Assembly (NCBI GenBank): GCA_033853925.1
Contig: JAWOLC010000016.1
Coordinates: 16,670 to 80,669 of the forward strand
Length of the DNA stretch: 64,000 nucleotides
From: Candidatus Eiseniibacteriota bacterium
GTDB lineage: Bacteria; Eisenbacteria; RBG-16-71-46
Reading direction: 5' to 3'
Position 1 is the stretch's first letter, and every line of letters starts with the position of its first letter. Position numbers and translations under genes: made by a program. The notes under the pieces are model-generated. The model was given only the letters and a program-made list of their open reading frames with translations, was not told the origin of the DNA and searched no databases. This document shows, one piece after another, positions 13,777 to 38,642 of the stretch.

Positions 13777-13879
13777 GTCGCAGAGGCGGCCTCGACAGTG
13801 GACGGGCCCCGATCGTCCGACTATCCTCGGCCGACGCTGCGGCCGCCGCTCGCGAATCCGCCTGACCGTGGGAGGAACC

Positions 13880-17590: not shown

Positions 17591-17602
17591 AGTAGGGAGC
17601 TC

Positions 17603-24168: not shown

Positions 24169-27100
24169 TCAGCGCAACAGTACGACCCGGCGGCTGATCG
24201 TCGCCCTCGGCGTCGAGAGGCGCACGAAATAGACCCCGGATCTCGCGCCCGAGCAGTCCCAGGCGATCTGGTTCGTCCCGGCGAGGAGGGACCCGCCCCC
24301 CAGGTCCGCGAGCCTCCGCCCGCTCAGGTCGTACACCCCGAGCTTCACGTCCGCCACGTCCGCCAGGCTCACGGTCAGCGGCACCGGCTGGCCGCGCGCG
24401 CTCACGATCGTGGGCACGCGCAGGTCGTCGGCGCCGGGCGGTGGCGCCGGCTGCGCGTGGCACGAGTCGAGATTGCAGATGCCCACCAGGGTGCACACCG
24501 GCTCGGAGACGAGGCCGCTCGCGTCGCGCACCGTGAGGCACACGTAGAACGCTGAGGTCTGGCGCGCCCCCGAGCCGGCGAGGAACCTGCCGGAGTAGGT
24601 CGGCCCGCAGGCTCCGCCGGGAACCCTCTCGCACCAGGAGAATTGATAGGGCGGCTTGCCTCCGGAGGCGGCGGCCCAGAACGTGTCGGGCGTGCTGGCG
24701 CAGCAGAGCAGCTCGGGCCCGCTGATGAAGGCTCGCGGTGTCTGCGCTCGACAGGAGTCCGGCGAGAAGATGCTCACGGCCTGGCAGACGGTGTCGGAGA
24801 CGAAGCCGTGGGCGTCCCGCAGGGAGAGGCAGACGAGGAACGTGGAGTCCCACCGCGCGGCGGAGCCGGTGAGGGTGCCGCCCGAGGAGGTCCAGCGGCA
24901 GCTTCCGCCCACCGGCTTCTCGCACCAGGAGAACTGGTACGGGGCCTTGCCTCCCCTGGCGCCCGCGTAGAACGTGTCCCGCTTGCTCGAGGTGCAGAGC
25001 TGGCTGGGCCCCATGATGAAGGGATGGGGCATCTGCGAATGGCAGGAGTCGCGGTTGCAGAACATCACCAGGCTGCTCAGGGTATCGGAGAGCACTCCAT
25101 CGGCGTCGCGCGCGGCGACGCAGAGGAAGAAGGAGGAATCCCGCCGGATCGCCGGTCCCGTGAGGAAGCTCCCGCCGGGCGCCAGCGTGTAGCTCCCGCC
25201 CACCGCCTGCTGGCCCCAGAAGAACTGGTAGGGCGGCTTCCCCACGGACCCCGAGGCCCAGAACGTGTCGGCGGCAGTCGTGCAGCAGAGCGATCCGGGG
25301 CCGCGGAGGCTCACCCGGGTCCTCCCATATGGGACCAGCACGGGCACGCGGATGGATTCGGTCTGCCTCATCCGGTCCATGACCTGGACGATGAGCGTGT
25401 GCGCGACGGTGTTGTGGCACTCCTCCTGCCACGGGAACTGGCCCAGCATCCCGGAGACCGACGACGACCACAGGTACGTATAGGGCGGCAAGCCCCCGGA
25501 GGGCGTGACCGTGTCGCGCACGCACCCGCCCCAGGCGGAGGTGAGGCTCGCCTGGGCGATGGACAGGACCATGGGCGGCACGTCCAGGGAGACCCACAGG
25601 CTGTCCCTGCCGAAGCGGCCGTGGCTGTCCGTGACCGTGCAGGCCACGAGGAATCGCGCGCTGTTCGAGCAGGCAGCCTGGATCGTGTTGGTGTCCCCCG
25701 GAATCGCGTACCAATCGCCCTGGTCTCCATAGGTCCACACGAGCTGCGACCAGGCGAAGTGGACCGCTCCCGTGGCGTGCGCCACGCTCGCCTGATACGT
25801 GCCCGGCTGGCCCAGGCCGAGCTTCACGGGACCCGTGATCGCGACTTGCAGCGAGAGTCCCACGATGGCGATTCCCCGGTGGGCGAAGACGCTGTCGATC
25901 TGGGAGAGGTGGGCGCCGGCCTGATGGTCGTAGTCGGCCTGCCAGATCGCGTCGCTGCCCATGGCGTAGCACGGGGTCGCCGGCAGATAGTAGAGGCTCT
26001 CGACGACCAGTCGATCCGCGACCTCGGGCAGGGTCTGGCGCAGATCCCAGAGCGCGCCGGACCAGATCATGCCCTTGCAGTACTGCCCGGCTCCCGACAC
26101 GCACTCCGCGTCGATCACGTCGTAGTTCGCGTAGTTGTACTGAGTCGGGTCCGTGTTCACGCAGCGGTAGATGCCGAGGACGGGCGCGTGCCCCTTGAAC
26201 ACGAAGTCGCCGATGCAGGGGTGGTTCGTCGAGGCGGCGCCGAAGAAGTCGGCGTAGCCCTCGTGCATGGCCAGCGGCTCCAGGGCCTTGCCGGCCAGGC
26301 CGCTCCCGTCGATGCCCAGCGAGACCAGGACGTAGTGGCCGCTCTCGTGACCGATGATGTCGGCGTCCTCCGCGCAGCAGCCCAGGCCGATCGCCTGCGT
26401 GAAGTAGGTGCCCGCCTCGGTCGTGAAGGCCAGGCCCATGCTCGTCGCCGGTTCGTGCACGTGCGCGGTCATGGGGGCGACGGGCAGCGTGTACCCCAGA
26501 GGCGCGAGGAAGGTCTCGACGAACTCGTTGGTGTGCCAGTAGGCGCTCACCTCGTCGAACGGGTTGGGATACGGGTTGATCGTGGTGCTGCACGGCTCGA
26601 AGTAGTACTGACCGTCGGGGCTGGAGACGCCCGGCGTCGTCTGGCTCACGACCCGGACGGAGCGCCCCTCGAGCCGCGAGACGTCGTCGCGCAAGTGGAC
26701 GAGGGTGGTGTCCAGCAGCCCGTGATCCGGATTCGGATTCGCCACCCAGCCGCGGCCGACGCCCGTGTACCCCTCGCCCAGCGCGAGGTTCGCCGTCTCG
26801 AGCACCGCCCCGCTGCGGGCATCCACCGTCACCCGCCACCAGTACGGTCGCGCGCTCGCCAGCAGAGTGACCACGTAGACGAGCGCCCCCCGACCTTCGC
26901 GCACGCGCACCGCCAGCTCCGTGGCCGCCCGCGCGCGCTCCGCCGTCGCCGGCGCCGCGGCGCGGGCCAGCTCCTCCGCGTGCGCGGCGGGAAACGCGGG
27001 TGTGGTCTCCGTCTCGGGCACGCGCACCGCGCCTCCGGCCAGCATGCGTAGGCGGCCCTGCCGGTCCACGCTCGCCATGTATTCGCCGTCCAGCACCGGG

Positions 27101-27465
27101 AGGCCGCGATAGAGCTGGCGCATGCGCAGGTGGTGCACGCCGCGACGCTCGCGCTCCTGCACCATCGCGAAGTCGTCCAGCCCGGCGCGCAGCCCGAACA
27201 AGCCGGCGTTGCGCGTGAAGAGGTCCTGCACTGCCCGGGCGTGCCCCGTCGTCCAGCCGGGCAGCGGCGCGCTCCCGCGACCGTGGATGACCTGCGGTGC
27301 GTCCGCGGGATCGTCCCAGCGCACGCGCCACTCGCCGGCCTCTCTCTGGGTGAAGGAGAGCCACTCGCGCGGGGATCGCGAGGGAAGCTCGGCGCTGCGG
27401 CCCACGCCGGCCCAAGCTGCCAGGACGTACAGCAGGAGCGCGGTCACGATCTGGGGCGGCCTCAT
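24169..27465 (-). CDS. Secreted thermolysin-like (M4/M36-type) zinc metalloprotease with Cys-rich Ig-like repeats and CTD
   Basis: Signal peptide; FTP/PepSY-like propeptide (LRMRQLYRGLPVLDG, VTVDARSGAVL); HESGH and HEGYADFF zinc motifs; GGxPPYxxxW repeats; CTD VYDLSGRRL. GGAGG RBS. Confidence 0.85.
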   Translation of the reverse strand: MRPPQIVTALLLYVLAAWAGVGRSAELPSRSPREWLSFTQREAGEWRVRWDDPADAPQVIHGRGSAPLPGWTTGHARAVQDLFTRNAGLFGLRAGLDDFAMVQERERRGVHHLRMRQLYRGLPVLDGEYMASVDRQGRLRMLAGGAVRVPETETTPAFPAAHAEELARAAAPATAERARAATELAVRVREGRGALVYVVTLLASARPYWWRVTVDARSGAVLETANLALGEGYTGVGRGWVANPNPDHGLLDTTLVHLRDDVSRLEGRSVRVVSQTTPGVSSPDGQYYFEPCSTTINPYPNPFDEVSAYWHTNEFVETFLAPLGYTLPVAPMTAHVHEPATSMGLAFTTEAGTYFTQAIGLGCCAEDADIIGHESGHYVLVSLGIDGSGLAGKALEPLAMHEGYADFFGAASTNHPCIGDFVFKGHAPVLGIYRCVNTDPTQYNYANYDVIDAECVSGAGQYCKGMIWSGALWDLRQTLPEVADRLVVESLYYLPATPCYAMGSDAIWQADYDHQAGAHLSQIDSVFAHRGIAIVGLSLQVAITGPVKLGLGQPGTYQASVAHATGAVHFAWSQLVWTYGDQGDWYAIPGDTNTIQAACSNSARFLVACTVTDSHGRFGRDSLWVSLDVPPMVLSIAQASLTSAWGGCVRDTVTPSGGLPPYTYLWSSSVSGMLGQFPWQEECHNTVAHTLIVQVMDRMRQTESIRVPVLVPYGRTRVSLRGPGSLCCTTAADTFWASGSVGKPPYQFFWGQQAVGGSYTLAPGGSFLTGPAIRRDSSFFLCVAARDADGVLSDTLSSLVMFCNRDSCHSQMPHPFIMGPSQLCTSSKRDTFYAGARGGKAPYQFSWCEKPVGGSCRWTSSGGTLTGSAARWDSTFLVCLSLRDAHGFVSDTVCQAVSIFSPDSCRAQTPRAFISGPELLCCASTPDTFWAAASGGKPPYQFSWCERVPGGACGPTYSGRFLAGSGARQTSAFYVCLTVRDASGLVSEPVCTLVGICNLDSCHAQPAPPPGADDLRVPTIVSARGQPVPLTVSLADVADVKLGVYDLSGRRLADLGGGSLLAGTNQIAWDCSGARSGVYFVRLSTPRATISRRVVLLR
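24430..25302 (-). repeat. Three tandem 291-bp (97-aa) coding repeats
   Basis: Units start GPGSLCC (25302), GPSQLC (25011) and GPELLCC (24720). Shared DTF.A...GK.PYQF.W and C...RD..G..S motifs. Confidence 0.85.
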
Positions 27466-27848
27466 TACGGTGCACCTCCGCAGTCGCGCCCGGCAACTGG
27501 AACGCCATTCTTCCACCAATCCGGACCCAGGGGAACGGGATATTTCGCGCGCCGCGGGCCGTCCGGCGGCCGCCGGGGGAGCCGCGGCGGGGAGGCAACC
27601 CCTGTGTCCAGCCGCTCGGGAAGGGCGGACCCCCCTGGGCCCGAGGGGACTCGAGGGGCGAAGGGCGACCAGCCGGGTCCCCAGTGCAGGATGCACGGCC
27701 ACCCCGATCCCGCGCGGGGCGGGGGAGGGGAATCCGGCGGCGAAGGTTCCGTCGAGGACTGGCTCCTCCCTTGCGAAGTTGGAGTAGAATTGGCAGTGGA
27801 CCGATCGTGCTGCTCTGCCAACCCATCCCCTCCCTGGAGGCAACTCTC

Positions 27849-30539
27849 ATGTCCCCGATCCGCCCGGCGCCATCCTGCCCGGCGCGACGCGTGCTGCTCG
27901 TCGCGACCCTTGCCCTGCTCACGGCCCTTCCGGCCTGGGCTCAGGAGGGCGGGACCGGACCGGGGAGCGGCTTGAGCCCCGCCGAGCGCGAGACCCAGCG
28001 CCGCACCCTCAAGCAGCTCCAGCGGGATCTGCTCATGCAGGGCGCGCGTGGGCGCATGGCCGCCGCGCGGGCGCGGCAGCGCGAGCTGAGGAAGCACGGG
28101 GCCACGCGCGGGCAGGGCCTGCACGCGCGCAAGGCGGAGGTTTCGGACGAGGGCGGGAAGCCCCTGGACTTCGACCGGCGGGTGGTGATGGCCTCGGCCG
28201 AGAAGGCGGTGGTCGCGCCGACCAACGTGCGCGTCAACAACCCGACGGGCGACGCCAGCTCCGCGGGCCAGGCCGAGGAGAGCGTGGCCGCCCTGGGCAA
28301 CTACGTGCTCATCGCCTGGAACGACGGGCAGGGATTCACCTTCAATCCCTACCACGACCTCCAGACGGCCGGTTACTCGGTGGACGGCGGCGCGTCCTTC
28401 ACCCAGGTCACGATTCCGCACCCGTCCGCCTACCCGAACTGGTGGTGGTCGAGCGATCCGATCGTGACCGTGGACGAGAAGCGGGGCAAGTTCTACTACT
28501 GCGGCATGGGCCAGGACGTGCCCGGGCCGACCGCCCCCTCGGTCAGCGCCCTCGCGGTGGTGCCCGCCACCTTCTCGGGCTCCACCTTCACCTGGGGCAC
28601 GCCCTCCATCGTGGCCACCGTCCCCGCCGCGACGAGCTTCCTCGACAAGCCCTGGTGCGTCGCCGACTCCGTCACGGGGAACGTCTACGTCACGACCACC
28701 ACCTTCGACGCCTCGGACCACATCACCTTCTATCGCTCGACGAACCAGGCCGTCACCTGGTCGCCGGGCGTGCAGATCTCCTCGGTCGCGGAGAACGGCA
28801 CGGTCCAGGGGTCGCGCCCGGTCGTCGGCCCCGGGGGCGAGATCTACGTCGTGTGGTCGGCCATCGGCCCCTTCGACGCCGATTATCTGAATCTGCGCAA
28901 GGCGCCGAACCCCGGCTCCGGCTCGCCGTCCTGGGGCACGGAGGTCACGGTGGACAGCCTCTACGCGCAGTTCGGCACGGGCGCCCCCGGCTTCAACCGC
29001 GAGCGCGGCATCACCTTCCCCTCGATCGCCGTGGACCGCACCAAGGGCGCGAATCGCGGCCGCGTCTACGTCGCCTGGAACGAGACCTGGGACATCATCT
29101 CGGCCCCGGTGCCGCTCAACTCCGGCAAGGCCGAGGTCGAGCCGAACGGGGATCCCACCACCGCCACGCCCTTCACGCCGGGGCAGACCCTGCGCGGCTC
29201 CAGCTCCTCGACCTCGGACCTCGACTACTGGAGCTTCGCCTTGAGCGCCGGCCAGAGCATCATCGTCTGGGCGGACTCGCTGCCCCCCAGCGCCACCTAC
29301 ACCCTGCGCCTCTTCGCCCCCAGCCCCGACGCGGGGCAGCGCCTGTGCTACGGGGGCGACATCACCGCCGGGTCCAGCGTCACCCAGACCTATTACATGT
29401 TCACGGCCCCGGCCGCGGGGACCTATTACCTCCGGTACGCTCCCGTCTTCGGAAACTCGCCGATCGGCTCGTACCGGGTGAGGACCGCGTACGGCGGCGG
29501 ACCCGGCGGCTACCGGGCGCGCGACCAGCGCGACGCGTTCGTCAAGTACTCGGACAACGGCACGAGCTGGAACGGACCCCTTCGGCTGAACGACGACGGG
29601 ATCGGCTTCGACGACTTCCTGCCCGAGGTGATCGTTGGCGCGGACGGCTGCCCCTACGCCACCTGGTTCGACTTCCGCGACGACACCTACGGCTCGCGCG
29701 CGAACCAGTACGCCTCCCGTTCCCAGGATGGCGGCGCGACCTGGCAGGCGAACGCGCGCTTCACCAGCGCCACGAGCAACTTCACCACCTCGCTGAGCAA
29801 CATCGCGCCCAACCAGGGGGACTACAGCCACCTCTACGGCGACCCGCGCTACGTCCGGCCCACCTGGGCCGACGGTCGCGGGGCGAACGTGGACGTCTGG
29901 GCCACCGCCGTCGACACCTGGTTCGCCCTGGCGAGCTGCCCGCCCGCGCAGAGCGCGAACCCGAGGGACGTCCTCAACCTCACCTGGACGGTGAACAATC
30001 AGAACCCGCTCTTCCCGAGCGACTACGGCTACACGCTCACCAGCGCCCGCGCCTGGCCCCTGCCCCCGCCCGGAACGCTCCCGGGCGTGGCGGCCGCCGG
30101 CTCCGGCGACCTGAACCTCGCGGTGAGCGTGCCCGACTCCGTGGCCCTGGGCACGAACACTCTGACCTTGACGGTGACGAACGCCAGGGGCACGCGGGTC
30201 CAGCAGTGCGACGTGACGGTGAACCTGGTCACGACCCTGCTCGCGGTGGAGCCCACGGGGTACGGGCTCTCCTTCTCGCCCGCGCGTCCCAACCCGGCCT
30301 CGCGCGAGGCGCGCCTCGACTTCACCCTGCCGGGCCCGGGCCGGGTGCGCCTGGCGATCTTCGGGGTGCAGGGCGAGATCGTGCGCACGCTGGTGGACGG
30401 CGAGCGGCCGGCCGGCTCGAACAGCGTGGCCTGGGACGGACGCGACGACTCGGGCCGCGCCGTGGCGACCGGCGCCTACTTCGCCCGCCTCGAGGCCGCC
30501 GGCCGCACTCTCACCCGGCGCATCGTCTGGATGAGGTGA
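27849..30539 (+). CDS. Secreted BNR/sialidase-like beta-propeller with PPC-like insert and FlgD-like CTD (paralog of 14632..17319)
   Basis: Shared blocks GQAE, AWNDG, SDP.VTVD, DKPW, VQGSRP.VGP, APGFNR, ITFP.IAVD, RGRVYV.WNE, E.EPN, RD.RDAFV, LPEV, NQGDY, WADGR. CTD RPNP...FGVQGEIVR...WDGRD. Confidence 0.78.
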   Translation: MSPIRPAPSCPARRVLLVATLALLTALPAWAQEGGTGPGSGLSPAERETQRRTLKQLQRDLLMQGARGRMAAARARQRELRKHGATRGQGLHARKAEVSDEGGKPLDFDRRVVMASAEKAVVAPTNVRVNNPTGDASSAGQAEESVAALGNYVLIAWNDGQGFTFNPYHDLQTAGYSVDGGASFTQVTIPHPSAYPNWWWSSDPIVTVDEKRGKFYYCGMGQDVPGPTAPSVSALAVVPATFSGSTFTWGTPSIVATVPAATSFLDKPWCVADSVTGNVYVTTTTFDASDHITFYRSTNQAVTWSPGVQISSVAENGTVQGSRPVVGPGGEIYVVWSAIGPFDADYLNLRKAPNPGSGSPSWGTEVTVDSLYAQFGTGAPGFNRERGITFPSIAVDRTKGANRGRVYVAWNETWDIISAPVPLNSGKAEVEPNGDPTTATPFTPGQTLRGSSSSTSDLDYWSFALSAGQSIIVWADSLPPSATYTLRLFAPSPDAGQRLCYGGDITAGSSVTQTYYMFTAPAAGTYYLRYAPVFGNSPIGSYRVRTAYGGGPGGYRARDQRDAFVKYSDNGTSWNGPLRLNDDGIGFDDFLPEVIVGADGCPYATWFDFRDDTYGSRANQYASRSQDGGATWQANARFTSATSNFTTSLSNIAPNQGDYSHLYGDPRYVRPTWADGRGANVDVWATAVDTWFALASCPPAQSANPRDVLNLTWTVNNQNPLFPSDYGYTLTSARAWPLPPPGTLPGVAAAGSGDLNLAVSVPDSVALGTNTLTLTVTNARGTRVQQCDVTVNLVTTLLAVEPTGYGLSFSPARPNPASREARLDFTLPGPGRVRLAIFGVQGEIVRTLVDGERPAGSNSVAWDGRDDSGRAVATGAYFARLEAAGRTLTRRIVWMR

Positions 30540-30631: not shown

Positions 30632-32350
30632 TCAGAACCTCCAGCTCACCCGGCTGTAGAGCAGCGTGCTCGGCGTGATCCCGCCGTGGTCGCGCTCGAC
30701 CGAGAGGTCCAGGTAGGCACGGCGCACGAGGGTCAGGTCCAGGTTGCCGCTCTCCCAGAGGGTGCGATCCTGGACCCCGGCGAGGGGATCACGGGTCGTG
30801 CGCACGCCGCCCGCGAGCTCCAGGCGCGCGCCCGGCAGCGGGTCGAGACCGCCGCCGAAGCTCGCCAGCCCCGTCTCGATGCCGGCGCCGCTGGCGTGGC
30901 TCAGCCGGCCGCGCAGCGCCCCGTTCAGGGGCCCGAGCTGATGGACCTCGGCCGCGCCCGACCAGCCGTTCAGCCGGTCCCCGTTGGCGATGGCGCTCGT
31001 GCGCGCGTCCCCGCTCAGGCGCACGCGCGGGGCCAGCTCCAGCGAGAGCCCGCCCCAGGCGCCCTCGCGGTAGCGGTCGTCGAATTCCGTCTCCGGCGTG
31101 ACCCGGTCGCGGTAGAGCCGCACGTTGCGCCGGTTGTCGTAGCCGCCGTTCAGCCACAGCGAAGGCGTCAGCTTCAGGCTCGCGGTCATGAACGTGCTCG
31201 TGGCCGAGAGCGTGGGCTCCCCGAGCGCCCGCTTCCAGCCGCGGTTCAGGTCCAGCTCCTGCGCCCCGAATACGGAGAGACGCGGGTCGAGGTAGAAGAG
31301 CTGGGCGAAGGCGAAGTCGCGGTTGGTGGTGCCGGCCTGCACCGAGGACACCGCGCCGCCGGCCAGCGACCAGCGTCGCGCCGAGCCGGCCGGCTGGTGC
31401 CACTCCAGGTACCCGCCGCCCTCGACGATGCTGCTCGACAGCCCGAGGCGCAGCGGATCGGGCTGGGCGCCGCTGAAGAGCCCGGTGTTCCAGCGCGCCC
31501 CCCGGGACTCGACCAGGGCGCCGTCGAAGAGGCTGACGGGTGACAGCGAGGGTGAGCTCTGCCGGCCGACGGTGACCAGGTAGCGCCCCGACGGATCGTG
31601 CGCCGAGAGGCTGAAGCGGTAGACACGCGTGAGATCCTCGGTCACCGTTCCGCCCGCCGCCCGCTGGAAGCTCGTCCACCGCCCGCGCAGATCGAAGGAG
31701 ACCGTGAGCGGCGAGCCGGCCAGAGGCGATCCGTCCAGGGTCAGGTCCAGGGCGGGCTGGCTCAGACGTCCGCCGCCCTGCGTGTCGAGGCTGAGGAGTC
31801 CCACGCCCACGCGGCCGTGGAGGCGTCCGCTCGGCGAAGCTCGCCGCGGCGTGGCCGGGGCGATGGGGGGAGCGGGAGCGCCAGCCGTCCGCGAGGTGTC
31901 GGGGGCGGGCACGACGGCGGCCGCGGCAGGGACCGGCGCGACGGGGGGCGCCTCCCGAGCGCTGAAGCGAACCGTGTCACCCACCTGCACGGCCGCGAAG
32001 GTGCGCAGCGTGTCGCACGCCGCCCGATGCGAGGAGAGGAACGCCGCGCGGAGCCAGGCGATCGTCCGCCCCTCGCGCACCACCAGCAACGAATCGCCTT
32101 CGCCCAGGCCCTCGAGCCTGCCGGCCTCCACGTAGACCGAGCCGCCGGCGAGGTAGCTGACGCGGGTCGTGGCCGCGCCCGCTCGGGCAGTGAGCGCCAG
32201 CGCCCCCGCGAGCGCCACCGCGACCCCGAGGCCCGACGCCGACGCGCGCCACCTGCCCGTGCCGCCTGCGCGCGCGGCGGCGCCTCCGCCGGCCCTGCGC
32301 CCTCGGGCCTCCCACGCGCTTCCCGCGGGGGCCGTCGCAGTCCTGATCAT
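30632..32350 (-). CDS. Outer-membrane beta-barrel (putative porin of a porin-cytochrome complex) with N-terminal soluble domain
   Basis: Signal peptide; N-terminal VSYLAGGSVYVEAG...GDSL domain; Pro-rich linker; alternating beta-strand pattern; C-terminal SRVSWRF. GGAGG RBS. Confidence 0.75.
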   Translation of the reverse strand: MIRTATAPAGSAWEARGRRAGGGAAARAGGTGRWRASASGLGVAVALAGALALTARAGAATTRVSYLAGGSVYVEAGRLEGLGEGDSLLVVREGRTIAWLRAAFLSSHRAACDTLRTFAAVQVGDTVRFSAREAPPVAPVPAAAAVVPAPDTSRTAGAPAPPIAPATPRRASPSGRLHGRVGVGLLSLDTQGGGRLSQPALDLTLDGSPLAGSPLTVSFDLRGRWTSFQRAAGGTVTEDLTRVYRFSLSAHDPSGRYLVTVGRQSSPSLSPVSLFDGALVESRGARWNTGLFSGAQPDPLRLGLSSSIVEGGGYLEWHQPAGSARRWSLAGGAVSSVQAGTTNRDFAFAQLFYLDPRLSVFGAQELDLNRGWKRALGEPTLSATSTFMTASLKLTPSLWLNGGYDNRRNVRLYRDRVTPETEFDDRYREGAWGGLSLELAPRVRLSGDARTSAIANGDRLNGWSGAAEVHQLGPLNGALRGRLSHASGAGIETGLASFGGGLDPLPGARLELAGGVRTTRDPLAGVQDRTLWESGNLDLTLVRRAYLDLSVERDHGGITPSTLLYSRVSWRF

Positions 32351-32387
32351 GGCTCCTCCCGGAGAGGCCTTCCCGCCCACATCGTGA

Positions 32388-33749
32388 TCATCCCCCGACC
32401 GAGCCGGTCGGATGGCACCGGTAGCAGGCGTTGCTGTCGTAGGTGTAGCCCGCGACGCTGCTGTGGTTCTGATCCGTCGTGGCCTGGGGGTGGCAGCCTC
32501 CGGGCAGGCAGCTGAACGCCGCGAAGTTGGTCGAGACCGTGTGACAGGTCGAGCAGGTGAGGCCTGAATGCGCCCCCGAGGTGATGGGGAACCAGGTGTG
32601 GTCGAAGGTGGCTCCGGCCCAGCTCGTGGTGTTGTGGCAGGTGGCGCAGGTCGTGGGGAAGCCGGCGGCGGCGTGGTTGGGATCGGCGGTCGCGTTGTAC
32701 TGGGCCTGGTGGCACGAGTAGCAGTCGGTGGCGAGCGTCATCTGCCACGGCGTGCCGTGGCACGTCACGCAGGCCACCGAGAGGTGCGCCCCCGTGAGGG
32801 GGAAGGGCGTCGTCGAGTGATCGAAGCTGCCGCTGCCCCAGGTGCCGGTCGAGTGGCAGGTGGCGCACGTCGTCGGGATCCCCGCGGCCGCGTGCGGGGG
32901 GCTCGTCGTGGCGTTGTACTGCGCCAGGTGGCAGGAGTAGCAGTCGCTGGCCGGCCTCGTCTGCCAGGGCGTTCCATGGCAGGACGAGCAGGCGACCGAG
33001 AGGTGGGCTCCGGTGAGCGGGAAGCCGGTGGCCGAGTGGTCGAAGCGGGCCGGCCCCCAGGCGATGGCGTTGTGGCACTGCGTGCAGTCCGTGGAGATGC
33101 CGGCCGCCGCATGGGCCGGAGTCGTCGTCGCGGCGAAGTCGGCGCGGTGACAGCCGTAGCAGTCGGCGATCGTGGCCACGAACTGCATGTGCCCCTGCGC
33201 CGCCGGCTGGTGGCAGGCTTCGCAGTCGAGCCCCGCGTGCGCCCCCGCGAGCGGGAAGCGCGTGGTCTGGTGCAGGCGCACCATCATGTCCCGGTCCAGG
33301 AACGAGCGGGCCGTGTGGCAGCGCCCGCAATCCGCGCCGAACTCGCCGCGGTGCGGGTCCTCGTGGCACGAGCTGCACATCGGCTTCTGCAGGGTGAAGT
33401 CGAGCGTCGCGTGACAGGCCGTGCAGGGCACCGAGGCGTGCGCCCCGGTCAAGGCGAAGCGGGACCTCGTCGCCTTGGCGTGGTCGAAGCGCGGGCCGAT
33501 CTGCGCCGGCTTCCAGCCCTGATCGCCATGGCACATGGAGCAGTCGCCCTGGTAGTTCCCGTGCGGGTAGGGCGGCTCCTCGGCAGCGACCGCCACGAGG
33601 GCCAGCGTCACGGGCAGGAGCGCCGCGAGCAGAACGGCCGGAAACGCGCTTCCCGGCTCGCCCTGCGGGCCGACGCCACGCGGGAGCCCCGGCAGCCACG
33701 GCGGGGACGCTCCGAGCTTCGGGGTCGGATGGAATGCGGATCGCTTCAT
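32388..33749 (-). CDS. Periplasmic multiheme c-type cytochrome (15 CxxCH + 1 CX4CH)
   Basis: Motifs counted by eye in the C-terminal 453 aa of ORF 32388..35717. Hydrophobic leader. Repeating FDH...FPLTGAH unit. Confidence 0.9.
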   Translation of the reverse strand: MKRSAFHPTPKLGASPPWLPGLPRGVGPQGEPGSAFPAVLLAALLPVTLALVAVAAEEPPYPHGNYQGDCSMCHGDQGWKPAQIGPRFDHAKATRSRFALTGAHASVPCTACHATLDFTLQKPMCSSCHEDPHRGEFGADCGRCHTARSFLDRDMMVRLHQTTRFPLAGAHAGLDCEACHQPAAQGHMQFVATIADCYGCHRADFAATTTPAHAAAGISTDCTQCHNAIAWGPARFDHSATGFPLTGAHLSVACSSCHGTPWQTRPASDCYSCHLAQYNATTSPPHAAAGIPTTCATCHSTGTWGSGSFDHSTTPFPLTGAHLSVACVTCHGTPWQMTLATDCYSCHQAQYNATADPNHAAAGFPTTCATCHNTTSWAGATFDHTWFPITSGAHSGLTCSTCHTVSTNFAAFSCLPGGCHPQATTDQNHSSVAGYTYDSNACYRCHPTGSVGG

Positions 33750-33766
33750 GGCGGGCCTCCGGGCGA

Positions 33767-36004
33767 TCAGGAGCTCTTGGGGCTCGGGCGAGTGGTGACG
33801 GCCGGACCCTTGGGCGTCTGCCGCACCGCGTGGCAGTCCTCGCAGCGCTCCGGGGTCGGCCGGTAGAGGGCGTAAGCGCGCCCCGCGGCGTCGCGGGCGG
33901 TCGGATGGCAGGCGCCACAGGCCACGCGGGCGTGGGCGCCGCGCAGGTGGAAGGCGGCGTCCCGCTCGTGATCGAAGCGGCCCGCGGGGGCGAACGCCTG
34001 CAGGTCGTGGCAAGCCTCGCAGGCGTCGCCGGGCAGGCCGGCACGCGTGGCCGGGCGACCCGCGAACTGCGCGCCGTGGGGGCTCGCGTGGCAGTCGGCG
34101 CAGCCGGTCGGCAGCGCGGTCACGAACAGGGCGGGCACGGCGGCGTCCCTGAGGCTCGAGGCGGCCCGCGGCGCGGCGAGGTCCTTGTGGCAGGCCAGGC
34201 AGGGCACGGCGCGGTGGGCGCCCTCGAGCGCGAAGCCGTAACCCGAGTGGTCGCTCACCCCGATCGTGGCCGGCGAGAAGGCGGCCAGCGAGTGGCAGGC
34301 GCGGCAGCCTTCGGCCTGCGGCCGCGCGCCGCCGGGGGAGTAGCGGCCCCGATGCGGGTCCGCGTGGCAGTCCGTGCAGCCCGCCGGCGTCTCGGCCACG
34401 AACAGGGCGGGCTCCGCCGCGCCCTTGAGGCTCGAGGCGGGGCGGGGCGAGTCCAGGTCGGAGTGACAGGAGCGGCAGGCGGCGGCGAGGTGCGCGCCCT
34501 CCAGGGCGAAGCCGAGCCGGGCGTGGCTGGCGGCGGTGACGGTGGAGGGCACGAACCGGTCCAGCGTGTGGCAGGCGCGGCACCCTCCGGCCTGCGCCCG
34601 GGCGCCGCCCGCCGCGTACCGGCCCCGATGCGGATCGGCGTGGCAGTCGGCACACTGCGCGTGCGGCGGCCGCAGCAGGACGCGCGAGGTCCCGAGCCCG
34701 GCCTCGGCGCTCCGGAGGTGGCAGCTCGCGCAGGCCGCGCTCGCGTGCCGGCCTTCGAGCGGGTAGGCAGTCGTCTGGTGCGCGGCGGCCGTGAAGGTCG
34801 AGGGCGTCCAGCCGCGCTCGTCGTGGCAGGCGGCGCAGTCGGCGGCTCGCCCGGCCAGCGTGGCTTGCCCGGCGTGCGCGTCGGGATGGCAGGCCGCGCA
34901 GCGCTCGAAGGGCGGCTTCTCGCCCCAGGCGGTCTTGGGGTCGTGGCAGCGGGCGCACGCCAGGGTGGCGTGCTTGCCGCGCAGGGCGAAGCGCGTGCGG
35001 TCGTGGTCGAAGTCGCGCTGGTTCACGTCGTGGAAGCCGGTCGTGACGTGGCAGCGGGCGCACGCCCCGGTGAACCGACCGGCGTGCGGGTCGCGATGGC
35101 AGGAGGCGCAGTCGGCGTGGGCCACGGGGGCGAAGCGCAACGAGCCGTACGCGGCGACGGACGCGGCGCCCCGGCCCACCGCGGCGGCGAGCTTCGCGGC
35201 CGGATGGCACGCCGAGCAGGCCAGAGAGACGTGCTTGCCCGTGAGCGGGTAGCGGGTCCTGGCGTGATCGAACCCCGGCGCGGGCTTCCACTTCTCCTGG
35301 TCGTGGCAGCGCCGGCAGTCGGCGCCTTCCTCGCCCCCATGCGGATCCTCGTGGCACGAGCCGCAGGGGGTCTCCAGGCCGAGCCACGAGCGCGCGTGAT
35401 CTTCCTGCCGGATGAGAGGAGCGGCGCCCGACTTCTGGAAGCGCGGCGCATGGCACTGCCGGCAGGCGAGGGAGGCATGCCGGCCCTCGAGCGAGAAGCC
35501 CGCCCGCCGGTGGTCGAAGCGCTGGGGGGAGCCTTCGTCCCAGCGCACGAGCTGGAAGCCGCGCCCGGCGTGCTCGGGGTGGCACTTCGCGCAGGCGGTG
35601 GTCCCGACGCGCGCGTGGAGGCCGCGCCCGCGCACGCGCAGCCAGCCGATCTCGGTGTGACAGGCGAGACACTTGGCGTCCACCACTCCGGCCCCACTGG
35701 CGTGGCACTGGAAGCACTGCGTGGCCCCGTCGAGGGCGCGATGCGCCTCGGCCAACGGCCCCGGCGAGAGCTGGGCGCGCGCCGGCGCGGCGGCGAGGAC
35801 GGCCGTGAGCGACAGGACCGCGAGCGCGGCGCTGCCGCGGGGGCCGATGGCCAGAGGGCGATGCCTGCGCAGCGGCGGAGCCAGGGATGGTGGAGCCGTG
35901 CTGGCGCAGCCCGAGCGAGACGTGCGGCAGGGACTGCCGCAGTCGAGCGTGCGCCCGGAGGCCATCGGCTCCGCGGTCCCGCGCTCGCGGCCCGGGATCG
36001 TCAT
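33767..36004 (-). CDS. Large periplasmic multiheme c-type cytochrome (23 CxxCH)
   Basis: 23 CxxCH counted by eye. Leader ending ARA-QLSPGPL. ATG 36004 overlaps the upstream TGA (alternative start 35965). Confidence 0.92.
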   Translation of the reverse strand: MTIPGRERGTAEPMASGRTLDCGSPCRTSRSGCASTAPPSLAPPLRRHRPLAIGPRGSAALAVLSLTAVLAAAPARAQLSPGPLAEAHRALDGATQCFQCHASGAGVVDAKCLACHTEIGWLRVRGRGLHARVGTTACAKCHPEHAGRGFQLVRWDEGSPQRFDHRRAGFSLEGRHASLACRQCHAPRFQKSGAAPLIRQEDHARSWLGLETPCGSCHEDPHGGEEGADCRRCHDQEKWKPAPGFDHARTRYPLTGKHVSLACSACHPAAKLAAAVGRGAASVAAYGSLRFAPVAHADCASCHRDPHAGRFTGACARCHVTTGFHDVNQRDFDHDRTRFALRGKHATLACARCHDPKTAWGEKPPFERCAACHPDAHAGQATLAGRAADCAACHDERGWTPSTFTAAAHQTTAYPLEGRHASAACASCHLRSAEAGLGTSRVLLRPPHAQCADCHADPHRGRYAAGGARAQAGGCRACHTLDRFVPSTVTAASHARLGFALEGAHLAAACRSCHSDLDSPRPASSLKGAAEPALFVAETPAGCTDCHADPHRGRYSPGGARPQAEGCRACHSLAAFSPATIGVSDHSGYGFALEGAHRAVPCLACHKDLAAPRAASSLRDAAVPALFVTALPTGCADCHASPHGAQFAGRPATRAGLPGDACEACHDLQAFAPAGRFDHERDAAFHLRGAHARVACGACHPTARDAAGRAYALYRPTPERCEDCHAVRQTPKGPAVTTRPSPKSS

Positions 36005-37470
36005 CCGGCGCTCCGCTGGGCGCCCGTCTCGATGGCGATCTCCTTGGTCACCATGCGCACGCCGCAGCGCTCGAGGAAGGGGTAGGGCGGCTCGCCGCCG
36101 ATGCGGATCACCACGTAGTCGTTGGGCAGGAGCCGCGGCTCGCCGGCGCAGTCCAGGGCCACGACCCCCGGCCGGATCTCGAGCACCCGGCTCTCCAGCA
36201 GCACTTCCACGCGCCCCGCCGCCCGCGCCGCCTCCAGCTTCTCGCGGTTGCGCTCCTTGACCCGCCCGAATTCCTGCCCGCGGTAGGACAGGACCACCGT
36301 CGTGTCGGGCTGGCTCGCCAGTCCCACCGCCGACTCGATCGCGCTGTCGCCCCCGCCTACGACCAGCATGCGGCAGCCCACGAAGGCCTCCATCTCGACG
36401 ATGTCGTAGAGGGCCTTCTCCAGCTCCTCGCCCGGCACCCCCAGCCGGCGCGGCGTGCCCCGACGCCCCATCGCCAGCACCACCTTGCGCGCCTGGTACT
36501 CGGTCCCGGGCGTGCGCAGGCGGAAGAGCACTCCGTCACGCGCCAGCGCCTCGACGCGCTCGCCGGTGTGCACGTTCAGCTGGGCCCGCGCAATCACCGC
36601 CTCCCACACCCGCAGCAGCTCCTCCTTCGAGGCGTCCGCGACCCAGAGGTTGCCGTAGAGCTGCACCCGCGTCGGTTCCGCGAGGAGGAGCTTGCGGCGC
36701 GGGTACTTGCGGATCGTGTCGGAGATCGAGCCCTGCTCGAGCACCACGCAGCGCAGGCCGAGCCGTCTCGCCTCCAGCGCCGCCGACAGCCCGGCGGGCC
36801 CCGAGCCCACCACGACCAGCTCGTAGGGGCCGGGCTCTTCCCGCTCGAGGGACGGAGGGAGCGGCGGGCCCGGCGGTCGCCCGCGCTCGGCGGCGAGGGT
36901 CTGCGCCACGTGCTCGACGGCGATCCGGCCCTCGTTGATCGCGTTCTTGATGAGCCCTCGCCCGCCCAGCTCGCCGACGATGTAGAGCCCGGGCACGTTC
37001 GTCTGGAAGTTGGCGTCCACCTCGGGCACCTCGAGGCGCTGGACCGCGGCGCCCGTGGCCATCACGATCGCCCCGACGGGGCAGGCGGGTGCGCACAGCC
37101 CGTGGCGCTGGCAGACGTCCAGGTTCACGAGCGCCCGATGGTCCACGAGGCGGAGCGCGCCGGGCTCGGGGCAGGCCGCGACGCAGGTGCCGCAGCCCAC
37201 GCACACGTCCGCCCGCACGATGGGGTGGGGCCTCGCTCCCGAATCCGGGACCGCCGTCGGGTCCACGACCGGCGCGGTGACCAGCTCGAAGGCCTGGAGG
37301 GGAACGCCGCAGGCCGGGCAGAATTCCGCGCCCGCCGCGATCGCGGCCGAGCAGCGCGGACAGGTCCGCGCCACGGGCGGGTCCTGACCCGAGCGCGAGC
37401 GGCGCACGTGCCACCAGGCCAGGAGCACGGTGAGGGCCAGGAAGGCCAGGGTCGTGACGAGCATGCCCAT
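36001..37470 (-). CDS. Membrane-anchored Zn-ribbon + 2x[4Fe-4S] + FAD/NAD(P)H-binding thioredoxin-reductase-like oxidoreductase
   Basis: N-terminal TM; CPRC/CPAC; CVGCGTCVAACP and CQRHGLCAPACP; VVGSGPAGL; VVGGGDSA followed by SYRG. No catalytic CxxC in the reductase domain. Confidence 0.88.
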   Translation of the reverse strand: MGMLVTTLAFLALTVLLAWWHVRRSRSGQDPPVARTCPRCSAAIAAGAEFCPACGVPLQAFELVTAPVVDPTAVPDSGARPHPIVRADVCVGCGTCVAACPEPGALRLVDHRALVNLDVCQRHGLCAPACPVGAIVMATGAAVQRLEVPEVDANFQTNVPGLYIVGELGGRGLIKNAINEGRIAVEHVAQTLAAERGRPPGPPLPPSLEREEPGPYELVVVGSGPAGLSAALEARRLGLRCVVLEQGSISDTIRKYPRRKLLLAEPTRVQLYGNLWVADASKEELLRVWEAVIARAQLNVHTGERVEALARDGVLFRLRTPGTEYQARKVVLAMGRRGTPRRLGVPGEELEKALYDIVEMEAFVGCRMLVVGGGDSAIESAVGLASQPDTTVVLSYRGQEFGRVKERNREKLEAARAAGRVEVLLESRVLEIRPGVVALDCAGEPRLLPNDYVVIRIGGEPPYPFLERCGVRMVTKEIAIETGAQRSAG

Positions 37471-37473
37471 GGC

Positions 37474-38502
37474 TCAACGCACCAGCACGCCGCCGACCAG
37501 GACCGCGATCGTGACGTGGACGAGGATGGCGAGGAGCGCGGTGATGGCCACGGGCAGGTGGGCCACGTGCCACCAGCCGAACACGCGGTGCGTGGCGTCC
37601 AGCATGCGCACCTGCTGGTCCAGCGCGAGCTGCCGGCGGGCGAGCGCGAGAGCCGCGGCCACCGCCCGGCGATCCGGCGCCGGCTCTCCGGGCCGCGGGC
37701 GCGACCAGCGCTTCTGCAGGGCGCGCAGCGCCCGGCGCCGCGCCAGGTCGTCGGCCACGAGGTGCGCGAAGGTGCCCAGGAGGCCGTGCCCCGCCCCGCG
37801 GGCGGGGCCCAGGGTCAGGGACTGCTCGACCTCGCCGGGGTCGAGCCCGGTCTCGGCCGCGATGCGCGTGAGCAGCGCCCGGCGCTCGTTGACCACCTCG
37901 TCGCGCGAGAGCTCGAGGCCGTTCCGCCGGCGGGGGATGTGCGCGTAGAGGTAGCGGCCCACGATCCCGCTCAGGATGACCAGCATCATGGCCGCGTAGC
38001 CCAGGCCGATGAGGCCCGTGAAGCGCCAGCCCGCGTGGACGGCCACGACGAAGGGCAGCGTCAGCCCCGCCAGGATGTGGACGCGAAGCCAGACGCCCAG
38101 GTTCCCGCGGCGGCGCAATGCGCCCAGGTGCTTCCGCAGGGGATAGAGCCACATGAAGAGGAAGAGGGACAGACCCGCGATGCCGAACCCGAGCCCGAGC
38201 GCGCCGGCGGGATCGAGCAGAGGCCGGAGCGGATCGCGGGCGCGGCCGGCCGGGCCGAGCAGATAGAAGGGCAGGTAACGGAGCGTGACGCCCAGCGGAA
38301 TCGCCAGCAGGCAGGCGATGGCCACGCGATCCACGACGATCGCCGGACTCTTCTCCCCTTGCCGCGCACGCTCGGGGCTCTCAGGGCGCAAGGCGAGGCT
38401 CTCCGCGTCAGGGACTCTGGTGCTGCGAGGCTCGGAACCCGGAGCGGCGCGCGGCGTCGATTCCGCCTGCCGCCGGGTCACGAGGGCGCTCAGCGAGTTC
38501 AC
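37474..38502 (-). CDS. Ferric-reductase-like di-heme b membrane protein
   Basis: Two His-x13-His pairs in TM helices (HILAGLTLPFVVAVH; HLPVAITALLAILVH). GGAAGG RBS before GTG 38502 (start uncertain). Confidence 0.75.
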   Translation of the reverse strand: MNSLSALVTRRQAESTPRAAPGSEPRSTRVPDAESLALRPESPERARQGEKSPAIVVDRVAIACLLAIPLGVTLRYLPFYLLGPAGRARDPLRPLLDPAGALGLGFGIAGLSLFLFMWLYPLRKHLGALRRRGNLGVWLRVHILAGLTLPFVVAVHAGWRFTGLIGLGYAAMMLVILSGIVGRYLYAHIPRRRNGLELSRDEVVNERRALLTRIAAETGLDPGEVEQSLTLGPARGAGHGLLGTFAHLVADDLARRRALRALQKRWSRPRPGEPAPDRRAVAAALALARRQLALDQQVRMLDATHRVFGWWHVAHLPVAITALLAILVHVTIAVLVGGVLVR

Positions 38503-38642
38503 GGCTACCGCCTTCCACCCGCATGGGTTGGTCGGGATCAGGCGTTTCCGATGTATAGGCGGACGTAACGGCGCATATACGCAAGTACCATTACGGGGGA
38601 CGCGCTCCGGACTCATCAAGGCTAAGGCCCGCATGCCTTCGC

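What the first reader, a model, noticed from the sequence alone, without database searches (positions are those of the whole stretch)
30632..38502. Candidate complete cytoplasm-to-surface electron conduit: NAD(P)H flavoprotein, di-heme b, 38-39 c-hemes, porin
Seen: five co-oriented, tightly spaced genes. They encode a TM protein with two His-x13-His pairs, a membrane-anchored 2x[4Fe-4S]/FAD/NAD(P)H reductase, cytochromes with 23 and 15(+1) heme motifs, and a beta-barrel ending in Phe. Established: His-x13-His pairs bind two b hemes in the ferric-reductase/NOX superfamily, and porin-cytochrome pairs (MtrAB, Pcc) carry electrons across the outer membrane. Inference: the operon could couple cytoplasmic NAD(P)H directly to extracellular acceptors or donors, bypassing the quinone/CymA step. 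I do not recognise this architecture as a characterised system.
Basis: partly seen in the sequence, partly recalled or inferred. Interest (0 to 1): 0.88.

Follow-up and report, generated by a model that had tools for sequence, protein, structure and literature searches.

The report
PCC3 heme conduit with flavoprotein partner
This five-gene operon is a copy of the predicted but untested "PCC3" porin-multiheme-cytochrome wire, and its inner-membrane two-heme protein is almost always encoded beside a membrane-anchored NAD(P)H-type iron-sulfur flavoprotein, which suggests that the wire is fed directly from the cytoplasm rather than from quinones.

Summary
Five tightly packed minus-strand genes (30632-38502) encode:
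- a 5-TM protein with invariant His pairs on TM3 and TM5;
- a one-helix-anchored ferredoxin/FAD/NAD(P)H protein;
- cytochromes with 23 and 15(+1) heme motifs;
- a 22-strand outer-membrane barrel.

The set is strongly co-conserved. Relatives of the membrane protein occur in 350 species genomes (Eisenbacteria, Gemmatimonadota, Acidobacteriota and others). The flavoprotein gene lies next to it in 83 of 85 testable loci, even at 30% identity. A cultured Bacteroidota strain, Emticicia oligotrophica, carries the set on a plasmid.

The architecture is not unrecognised. It matches the "PCC3" cluster defined computationally by He et al. 2017, which also noted the HX13H/ferric-reductase resemblance but modelled a quinone link. 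PCC3 has never been tested functionally. The flavoprotein is absent from the published model; only a 2026 metagenome paper mentions a nearby ferredoxin-NADP reductase gene.

Best reading (about 0.5): a quinone-independent route NAD(P)H -> FAD -> 2 FeS -> 2 heme b -> about 38 heme c -> cell surface. Everything beyond gene content is inference. I rate it a new variant of a known kind, of moderate to high interest.

The parts
37474..38502 (-). Gene A: PCC3-type inner-membrane protein (IMP), a putative di-heme b transmembrane cytochrome. It has 5 TM helices and a 123-aa helical loop between TM4 and TM5, predicted to lie in the cytoplasm.
   Evidence: Five hydrophobic segments. K+R counts are 36 on the predicted inside loops and 5 on the outside loops. 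AF2 mean pLDDT is 80 with 5 TM helices. W138-x3-H142-x13-H156 (TM3), S178-G-x-x-G182 (TM4) and W311-x3-H315-x13-H329 (TM5) are invariant in 31 homologs. This is the IMP signature given by He et al. 2017. There is no Pfam, NCBIfam, PDB-sequence or Foldseek match.
36001..37470 (-). Gene B: membrane-anchored cytoplasmic iron-sulfur flavoprotein. Domain order: N-terminal TM helix, non-conserved Zn ribbon, 2x[4Fe-4S]-type ferredoxin domain (second motif CxxHxxCxxxCP), then a TrxR/YpdA-like FAD + NAD(P)H domain.
   Evidence: Pfam Pyr_redox_3 2.8e-39, Fer4_10 and DZR. TIGR04018 YpdA scores 161.7 bits, below its cut-off of 339.9. The nearest solved structures are YpdA/Bdr 7a76 and 7a7b and the TrxR-type FNRs 2zbw and 3ab1. 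The FeS Cys/His residues, GxGPxG, GGGDSA and the YR of the NADPH-type motif are at least 95% conserved in 83 sequences. There is a single TM at residues 1-19, followed by RRSR.
33767..36004 (-). Gene C: 23-heme c-type cytochrome with a Sec signal peptide. It corresponds to the 'periplasmic MHC' of PCC3.
   Evidence: 23 CxxCH and 52 His, with a three-heme period of about 85-92 aa and 32 aa per heme. Pfam Cytochrome_C7 5.8e-29; there is a partial DmsE/MtrA-family match below cut-off. The orthologous first cytochrome has 20 or 23 hemes in nearly every one of the 80 related loci where the contig does not cut it off. More divergent clusters have 16-30 hemes at this position.
32388..33749 (-). Gene D: cytochrome with 15 CxxCH + 1 CxxxxCH and a Sec signal peptide. 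It corresponds to the variable 'extracellular MHC' of PCC3.
   Evidence: Regular 73-aa three-heme repeats, 11% Thr, 30 aa per heme. Pfam Cytochrome_C7 and Cytochrom_c3_2. The orthologous second cytochrome varies from 13 to 85 hemes and is missing in three loci.
30632..32380 (-). Gene E: outer-membrane protein. Order of parts: signal peptide, small N-terminal beta domain (about residues 59-130 of the 572-aa form), Pro/Ala-rich disordered linker, 22-strand beta-barrel, C-terminal Phe.
   Evidence: AF2 on 32 homologs gives barrel pLDDT about 90 and 22 strands. Foldseek gives probability 1.0 to the PapC/FimD usher pores, TonB-dependent receptors and Occ porins. No Pfam hit. It is syntenic in relatives.

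Best explanation
The operon encodes a PCC3-type electron conduit that spans the whole cell envelope. Its inner-membrane end is a two-protein module.

Protein B sits on the cytoplasmic face, held there by one helix. It takes a hydride from NAD(P)H onto FAD and passes single electrons through two iron-sulfur clusters. One cluster has a conserved His ligand, which is typical of an exit cluster.

Protein A carries two b hemes, each held between TM3 and TM5. H142/H315 would bind the heme near the cytoplasm and H156/H329 the heme near the periplasm. Together they take the electrons across the membrane.

The 23-heme cytochrome C then bridges the periplasm and enters the 22-strand barrel E. The variable 15-16-heme cytochrome D presents the electrons at the cell surface to an insoluble or extracellular acceptor, such as Fe(III)/Mn(IV) minerals, humics or O2.

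This route has no quinone step and no proton-coupling site. Outward flow would not conserve energy; it would be helped by the membrane potential and would dissipate it. That suits disposal of excess reductant or reductive mobilisation of mineral-bound nutrients better than respiration.

Shown: the gene content, motifs, predicted folds, topology and co-inheritance. Inferred: cofactor binding, the A-B contact, NAD(P)H as donor, the direction of flow and the acceptor.
For: - Gene set, motif counts and tight spacing.
- A carries the exact PCC3 IMP signature, which is invariant in 31 homologs. Its topology places one His pair at each membrane face.
- B resembles NADPH-dependent YpdA and TrxR-type ferredoxin-NADP reductases, and has a fused two-cluster ferredoxin domain. 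Its cofactor motifs are at least 95% conserved.
- B lies within 1.5 kb of A in 83 of 85 testable loci: 65 between A and C, 18 just upstream.
- This holds for A relatives of only about 30% identity within the phylum.
- It also holds for a 35%-GC Bacteroidota plasmid.
- Flanking genes differ between genomes.
- One metagenomic ORF (P0389, 863 aa) joins A-like and B-like parts.
- In PCC4, the analogous IMP sits beside an Fe-S protein gene, and one annotation has the two as a single gene (He et al.).
- The first cytochrome has an almost fixed heme number (20 or 23) while the second varies from 13 to 85. This fits a periplasm-spanning part and a surface part (Hoover et al. 2023).
- E is a large barrel.
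- The genome has cytochrome c maturation genes.
- S. lithotrophicus ES-1 down-regulates PCC3 on Fe(II), which argues against the Fe(II)-oxidase model.
Against: - There is no experimental datum for any PCC3 component.
- A has no detectable sequence or fold relative with a known cofactor, so heme b binding rests on motif and topology alone.
- Gene linkage does not prove that B donates electrons to A.
- Two loci lack B nearby (L077, L092).
- I could not check the proteobacterial reference PCC3 clusters for a B homolog.
- Outward electron flow from NAD(P)H without proton coupling costs membrane potential, so the benefit to the cell is unclear.
- No complex model (A+B, C+E+D) could be computed.
- A quinone site in A cannot be excluded.
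Confidence: 0.5

Rival explanations
1. This is the published PCC3 model (He et al. 2017). The conduit takes electrons up from extracellular Fe(II) or minerals. A is a quinone-reactive cytochrome b that hands them to the quinone pool. B is an accessory enzyme with no part in the main electron path.
For: PCC3 was found in Fe(II)-oxidising Gallionellaceae and Leptothrix, and a quinone link was proposed for the IMP. The PCC3 IMP of Sideroxydans sp. CL21 copy 2 went up when cells could oxidise iron. Many di-heme membrane cytochromes b do react with quinones (established knowledge).
Against: Both ES-1 PCC3 clusters were down-regulated on Fe(II). Most carriers found here are heterotroph-type lineages, and this genome has a heme-copper oxidase. 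The near-universal linkage of A with B, kept at 30% identity and across phyla, is hard to explain if B is irrelevant. No quinone-site motif or relation to a quinol-oxidising family was detected.
Confidence: 0.2
2. A and B form a dedicated reductant-delivery system for making or maintaining the giant cytochromes. They would keep heme iron or CxxCH thiols reduced in the periplasm, by analogy with CcdA/DsbD plus thioredoxin reductase. They would not be the entry point of the wire.
For: B belongs to the thioredoxin-reductase-like flavoprotein group. The Emticicia cluster starts directly after a ccsA cytochrome c biogenesis gene. About 38-100 hemes per cluster is a heavy maturation load.
Against: B lacks a redox-active dithiol, and electrons should leave through Fe-S clusters. 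A has no conserved Cys pair. In most loci no maturation gene is adjacent. The genome has separate maturation genes elsewhere. First position in the operon and 1:1 linkage with the wire components fit a structural subunit better.
Confidence: 0.1
3. The module runs inward. Low-potential extracellular electrons (cathodic minerals, Fe(0), a syntrophic partner) travel through D, C and A to B, which reduces NAD(P)+ like a ferredoxin-NADP reductase and so supplies reducing power directly.
For: TrxR-type FNRs are reversible enzymes (established knowledge; nearest structures). Multiheme conduits such as Mtr/Mto can run in both directions (discussed).
Against: Electrons entering the cytoplasm move against the membrane potential and must also reach about -320 mV. 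Fe(II) or most minerals could not drive this without a coupling site, and none is encoded (inference from thermodynamics). No carbon-fixation context is seen in the window.
Confidence: 0.07

Closest known systems
PCC3 porin-cytochrome c gene cluster (He et al. 2017, Front Microbiol 8:1584, PMC5566968; Hoover et al. 2023, PMC10734462). Examples: Sideroxydans lithotrophicus ES-1 Slit_0867-0870 and Slit_1446-1449, and Leptothrix cholodnii SP-6.
   Same: - Same four components in the same order: IMP, periplasmic MHC, extracellular MHC, porin (one search gives Slit_1446-1449 in that order).
- IMP of about 300 aa with 5 TM helices, W-x3-H-x13-H on TM3 and TM5, and SGxxG on TM4.
[quoted passage not shown]
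- Repetitive, Thr/Ser/Ala/Gly-rich extracellular MHC of variable heme number.
- About 26-32 aa per heme.
- A 22-strand porin in L. cholodnii.
   Different: - The published cluster has four genes and no flavoprotein. Here a ferredoxin-flavoprotein gene sits inside the operon between the IMP and the periplasmic MHC.
- The published model links the IMP to quinones and to Fe(II) oxidation.
- The carriers here are Eisenbacteria, Gemmatimonadota, Acidobacteriota and Bacteroidota, not Proteobacteria.
- I could not test direct sequence homology to the proteobacterial reference proteins.
NADPH oxidase / ferric reductase (NOX, FRE/FRO, bacterial NOX) with the ferric-reductase transmembrane domain (Pfam PF01794)
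   Same: - Logic of the path: cytoplasmic NAD(P)H, then flavin, then two stacked b hemes, then an acceptor on the other side, with no quinone.
- His pairs 13 residues apart on TM3 and TM5.
- N-terminus inside.
- Basic cytoplasmic TM2-TM3 loop (He et al.).
   Different: - No PF01794 match, even in a six-frame scan of the genome.
- Five TM helices, not six.
- A 123-aa helical insert between TM4 and TM5.
- The dehydrogenase is a separate, TrxR/YpdA-like protein with two Fe-S clusters, not a fused plant-type FNR domain.
- The acceptor is a multiheme wire, not O2 or an Fe(III) chelate.
MtrCAB (Shewanella), MtoAB/PioAB and Geobacter Pcc (OmbB-OmaB-OmcB) porin-cytochrome complexes
   Same: A periplasmic multiheme cytochrome inserted in a large outer-membrane barrel with an extracellular multiheme partner. 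Part of C shows DmsE/MtrA-family likeness.
   Different: - Those complexes are fed from quinol dehydrogenases (CymA, ImcH, CbcL) through soluble periplasmic carriers.
- They have 8-12 hemes per protein, against 23 and 15-16 here.
- MtrB has 26 strands.
- E has no MtrB/PioB family match.
- C's DmsE score is far below the cut-off (49.9 against 192.2 bits).
Transmembrane redox complexes of sulfate reducers (Hmc, Tmc, DsrMKJOP)
   Same: They join a periplasmic multiheme cytochrome, a membrane cytochrome b and a cytoplasmic iron-sulfur protein, so electrons cross the inner membrane between cytochrome c and cytoplasmic Fe-S centres (own knowledge).
   Different: - They use NarI/HdrE-type or NrfD-type membrane subunits and HdrD-like CCG proteins.
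- They have no NAD(P)H flavoprotein and no outer-membrane barrel.
- The electrons serve cytoplasmic sulfite or sulfate reduction.
- I did not test sequence relation beyond the negative family scans.

Membership tests
PCC3 porin-cytochrome c cluster (He et al. 2017) | Conserved inner-membrane protein of about 300 aa with five TM helices, W-x3-H-x13-H on TM3 and on TM5, and SGxxG on TM4 | tested here: met
   The residues are W138/H142/H156, S178-G179-x-x-G182 and W311/H315/H329. All are invariant in 31 homologs. Five TM segments are seen. The definition was read.
PCC3 porin-cytochrome c cluster (He et al. 2017) | Adjacent periplasmic multiheme cytochrome with about 21-27 hemes, a low aa/heme ratio and internal three-heme repeats | tested here: met
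   C has 23 CxxCH, 32 aa per heme and a period of 85-92 aa per three hemes. Orthologs have 20 or 23 hemes.
PCC3 porin-cytochrome c cluster (He et al. 2017) | Second, extracellular multiheme cytochrome of variable heme number that is repetitive and rich in small residues | tested here: met
   D has 15+1 motifs, 73-aa repeats and 42% T+S+A+G. Orthologs have 13-85 hemes. Its extracellular location is itself not testable here.
PCC3 porin-cytochrome c cluster (He et al. 2017) | Outer-membrane beta-barrel gene in the same cluster | tested here: met
   E is predicted as a 22-strand barrel and matches OM barrels in Foldseek. The L. cholodnii PCC3 porin was predicted with 22 strands.
PCC3 porin-cytochrome c cluster (He et al. 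2017) | Sequence homology to the reference proteins of Sideroxydans ES-1 or Leptothrix SP-6 | not testable with these tools
   Those genomes could not be reached. The one genome-contig scan returned only the 80 best loci, none proteobacterial. The paper's supplements hold no sequences.
Ferric-reductase / NOX transmembrane domain (Pfam PF01794) | Match to the family profile | tested here: not met
   No Pfam hit for A even at E<=10. A six-frame PF01794 scan of the own genome does not hit the A locus. No NOX or STEAP structure appears among the Foldseek or PDB-profile hits.
Ferric-reductase / NOX transmembrane domain (Pfam PF01794) | Two bis-His heme sites formed by His pairs on TM3 and TM5 about 13 residues apart | tested here: met
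   H142-x13-H156 and H315-x13-H329 are invariant. Heme binding itself is untested.
Ferric-reductase / NOX transmembrane domain (Pfam PF01794) | Six TM helices with a fused or directly following FNR-type FAD/NADPH domain | tested here: not met
   A has five TM helices. The flavoprotein is a separate gene product of the TrxR/YpdA fold class.
YpdA / bacillithiol disulfide reductase (TIGR04018) | Score above the curated equivalog cut-off | tested here: not met
   161.7 bits against a cut-off of 339.9. It is the closest family, with 7a76 and 7a7b as the best PDB hits, but B adds a TM anchor and a ferredoxin domain.
MtrAB/MtoAB/PioAB porin-cytochrome | MtrB/PioB-family barrel and DmsE/MtrA-family decaheme above cut-off | tested here: not met
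   E has no family hit. C's TIGR03508 score is 49.9 against a cut-off of 192.2.

The most novel reading that the evidence does not exclude
PCC3 is not a quinone-linked Fe(II) oxidase. It is a quinone-independent NAD(P)H:extracellular-acceptor oxidoreductase. In this reading A+B form a bacterial 'split NADPH oxidase / ferric reductase': a TrxR-like Fe-S flavoprotein plus a new family of 5-TM di-heme b proteins. The pair is hard-wired to a protein wire of about 40 to more than 100 hemes that crosses both membranes. Mostly aerobic heterotrophs in several phyla would use it to export reductant for mineral dissolution, nutrient release or extracellular oxygen-radical production, not to gain energy.
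Probability: 0.4. Interest if true: 0.85.

Novelty: new variant of a known kind. Interest (0 to 1): 0.62.

Why it matters
Every characterised Gram-negative extracellular electron transfer route starts at the quinone pool (CymA, ImcH, CbcL and similar). If this route instead starts at NAD(P)H and runs as one hard-wired chain to the cell surface, three things follow.
- It would be a new way for bacteria to connect cytoplasmic redox state to minerals, humics or oxygen.
- It would change how PCC3 genes are read in metagenomes. They are now counted as iron-oxidation markers.
- It would define a large protein family as a new type of transmembrane cytochrome b. The family has 3160 clusters at 50% identity and no annotation.

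The module is abundant in soil and groundwater phyla with few cultured members. The copy on an Emticicia oligotrophica plasmid makes the question testable in a cultured, non-pathogenic strain.

Tried and rejected
- **Relatives of A:** Pfam and NCBIfam at lenient thresholds, a PDB profile search and Foldseek of the AF2 model (best E about 1) found nothing. A cannot be filed under ferric reductases, cytochrome b561, NarI or HydC families. The only trace was a sub-threshold Ni_hydr_CYTB hit in one distant relative, P0460.
- **Profile comparison with ferric-reductase domains:** only two PF01794 proteins turned up in 41 phylum genomes. High-GC shadow ORFs made them awkward to extract, so I dropped this.
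- **Proteobacterial PCC3 on plasmids:** a B query hit a Pseudoalteromonas chromid, but that gene sits among glycosyltransferases and is unrelated.
- **Names for distant family members:** The listing of cluster members returned almost none.
- **The two loci without B (L077, L092):** no alternative redox partner was visible upstream.
- **Promoter, terminator and operator search:** the scan of the operon gave nothing above chance. I saw no obvious Fur-type box in the upstream region.
- **Model geometry:** model coordinates are not exposed, so His-His distances and barrel lumen size could not be measured.
- **Rejected reading:** a periplasm-facing flavoprotein. B has no Tat motif and its anchor is followed by a basic stretch.

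Full report
**What is in the sequence.** The window has about 73% G+C. Five minus-strand reading frames fill 30632-38502.
- A, 37474-38502, 342 aa.
- B, 36001-37470, 489 aa.
- C, 33767-36004, 745 aa, 23 CxxCH.
- D, 32388-33749, 453 aa, 15 CxxCH + 1 CxxxxCH.
- E, 30632-32380, 582 aa, ending in WRF.

The gaps between genes are 3 nt, a 4-nt overlap, 17 nt and 7 nt, so they look like one transcription unit. No promoter or terminator consensus stood out. The flanking genes are unrelated: an S9 peptidase, ArgR and arginine biosynthesis, and secreted proteins with a C-terminal sorting domain. Two small refinements apply. The start of A may lie about 37 codons further in, because most homologs are about 305 aa. 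The second Fe-S motif of B is CxxHxxCxxxCP.

**The parts.**
- A has five hydrophobic segments. K+R counts are 36 on the proposed inside loops and 5 on the outside loops, which puts the N-terminus inside.
- The AF2 model of A (pLDDT 80) shows five TM helices and a helical bundle formed by the TM4-TM5 loop.
- In 31 homologs of 49-78% identity, H142, H156, H312, H315 and H329 are invariant. So are W138, W311, the SGxxG of TM4 and the membrane-interface motifs HAGWRF and GRYLYxHIPR.
- TM3 and TM5 run in the same direction. H142/H315 should therefore hold one heme near the cytoplasm and H156/H329 one near the periplasm. This is an inference.
- A matches no Pfam or NCBIfam family, no PDB sequence and no solved fold.
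- B has one N-terminal helix followed by RRSR, a Zn ribbon, a two-cluster ferredoxin domain and a TrxR-like flavoprotein domain.
- The closest relatives of B's flavoprotein domain are NADPH-dependent YpdA/Bdr and the TrxR-type ferredoxin-NADP reductases.
- Across 83 sequences the Fe-S ligands (including the His), GxGPxG, GGGDSA and the following YR are at least 95% conserved. The Zn ribbon is not conserved.
- B has no export signal, so its cofactor domains should be cytoplasmic (inference).
- C and D have Sec signal peptides, c7/c3-type heme packing signatures, three-heme repeats and about 30 aa per heme.
- E has a signal peptide, a small beta domain, a disordered Pro/Ala linker and a confidently predicted 22-strand barrel. 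The barrel matches usher pores, TonB-dependent receptors and porins.

**Conservation.**
- Relatives of A were found in 350 of 185,579 species genomes. The 80 best are from Eisenbacteria, Gemmatimonadota, Acidobacteriota, Krumholzibacteriia and Polarisedimenticolia MAGs.
- tblastn of all five proteins against these loci shows the order A-B-C-D-E wherever the contig is long enough. In one variant B lies just upstream of A, and A then abuts C.
- B is within 1.5 kb of A in 83 of 85 testable loci. The two exceptions showed no substitute partner.
- Flanks differ between genomes.
- Within the phylum, A occurs in 72 of 201 genomes and is patchy even within the genus. It is therefore accessory.
- Divergent A relatives of about 30% identity still sit in B-A-cytochrome-cytochrome-barrel clusters. 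One has an 85-heme reading frame.
- The cultured Bacteroidota strain Emticicia oligotrophica DSM 17448 carries ccsA-IMP-flavoprotein-23 heme-40 heme-barrel on plasmid pEMTOL02. That stretch has 35% G+C and keeps every diagnostic motif.
- The A family comprises 3160 clusters at 50% identity.
- One 863-aa metagenomic ORF joins A-like and B-like parts. It comes from a single short contig and may be an error.
- The first cytochrome has 20 or 23 hemes in nearly all of the 80 related loci where it is complete, and 16-30 in the more divergent clusters. The second ranges from 13 to 85.

**What is known.**
- A pointer from earlier notes of this scan led me to He et al. 2017 (PMC5566968). That paper defined "PCC3" in Sideroxydans, Leptothrix and many other Proteobacteria.
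- PCC3 there consists of a porin, an extracellular MHC (median 34 hemes), a periplasmic MHC (median 21) and a conserved IMP.
- The IMP is about 300 aa, with five TM helices, SGxxG on TM4, and W-x3-H-x13-H on TM3 and TM5.
- A carries this signature residue for residue.
- C, D and E fit the other three components. This includes the 22-strand porin and the repeat structure reported for L. cholodnii.
- The gene order IMP-periplasmic-extracellular-porin matches that of Slit_1446-1449.
- He et al. already compared the IMP with the ferric-reductase domain, but proposed that it exchanges electrons with quinones.
- They mention no flavoprotein, FAD or ferredoxin, and none of the phyla found here.
- Hoover et al. 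2023 argued that the 21-27-heme cytochrome could span the periplasm.
- PCC3 remains functionally untested. In S. lithotrophicus ES-1 both clusters were down-regulated on Fe(II).
- A 2026 metagenome study noted a ferredoxin-NADP reductase gene near 7 of 11 similar clusters, "suggesting potential functional coupling" (PMC13264449). One of its MAGs, SAR286, is my locus L073.
- I found no paper that proposes or tests an NAD(P)H-fed PCC3.

**Mechanism.**
- The most economical reading of a 1:1, deeply conserved pairing between a cytoplasmic NAD(P)H/FAD/2FeS protein and a two-heme membrane protein is that B feeds A. The pair sits at the head of a multiheme wire.
- The path would be NAD(P)H -> FAD -> two Fe-S clusters -> inner heme b -> outer heme b -> C (periplasm, entering E) -> D (surface).
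- The conserved His ligand on one cluster recalls the exit clusters of hydrogenases (own knowledge).
- Thermodynamically the outward direction is downhill and is helped by the membrane potential. It moves charge without protons, so it would dissipate rather than build proton-motive force.
- The inward direction to NAD(P)+ would need donors below about -450 mV.
- I therefore favour reductant export over respiration: redox balancing, reductive mineral dissolution (as done by fungal and plant NADPH ferric reductases) or oxygen reduction at the surface. This part is inference.
- The genome has cytochrome c maturation genes and a heme-copper oxidase, so the organism is probably an aerobe or facultative aerobe.

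**Rivals.**
- The published quinone-linked Fe(II)-uptake model (0.2).
- A/B as a reductant supply for cytochrome maturation (0.1).
- Inward flow to NAD(P)+ (0.07).

**Verdict.**
The system is a member of the known, uncharacterised PCC3 class in new phyla.
- The flavoprotein subunit and the NAD(P)H-entry idea are a real and testable addition to the published model.
- Limits: there is no experimental evidence. I made no direct comparison with proteobacterial reference clusters.

Noticed in passing
L098 (NC_018749.1, Emticicia oligotrophica DSM 17448 plasmid pEMTOL02) 8683-20481: A cultured Bacteroidota strain carries the whole module on a 100-kb plasmid, directly after a fused ccsA cytochrome c biogenesis gene. 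The order is IMP (281 aa), flavoprotein (440 aa), 23-heme cytochrome, 40-heme cytochrome, then a 538-aa putative barrel. The stretch has 35% G+C. This suggests horizontal mobility and offers an experimental host.
   Followed up: partly
L092 (G051:C2) 11762-17974: A single open frame of 2071 aa carries 85 CxxCH motifs. It lies downstream of a divergent IMP and a 20-heme cytochrome. No B homolog occurs within 9 kb on either side.
   Followed up: partly
window 36900-37030 (B residues about 147-195): The conserved stretch TNVPGLYIVGELGGxxLIKNA precedes the GxGxxG of B. It aligns with the late 'GD'-type FAD motif of lipoamide dehydrogenase (TIGR01350 positions 287-332). B's match to YpdA stops about 55 residues before YpdA's C-terminus. 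The flavoprotein domain may therefore be circularly permuted relative to TrxR/YpdA.
   Followed up: no
P0389 (863 aa) and P0460 (742 aa), metagenomic proteins: P0389 joins an A-like part to Fer4 + Pyr_redox domains in one ORF. This is either a real A-B fusion or a sequencing error. P0460 has an unknown 480-aa N-terminal extension, and its A-like part gives a sub-threshold Ni_hydr_CYTB (cytochrome b561) hit.
   Followed up: partly
own genome: C120:10385-13336, C73:2-1600, C21:13044-18324, C47:8889-9917, C32:2517-4397, C101:1613-3892: Other multiheme cytochrome frames (18, 13, 10+10, 10, 9 and 8 CxxCH) lie elsewhere in the genome, so this organism has further candidate electron-transfer loci. 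The A-E operon is single-copy.
   Followed up: no
window 38530-38640 (minus strand): A locally AT-richer stretch lies just upstream of gene A. It contains the inverted repeat CGTAA...TTACG and TATAC-type words, and could be a promoter or operator. No sigma-70 consensus was found.
   Followed up: no
window 24172-30536: An M36-type metallopeptidase with SprB repeats lies on the minus strand. A 951-aa secreted protein with PPC and FlgD-Ig C-terminal domains lies on the plus strand and is convergent with gene E. Neither is part of the conduit.
   Followed up: no
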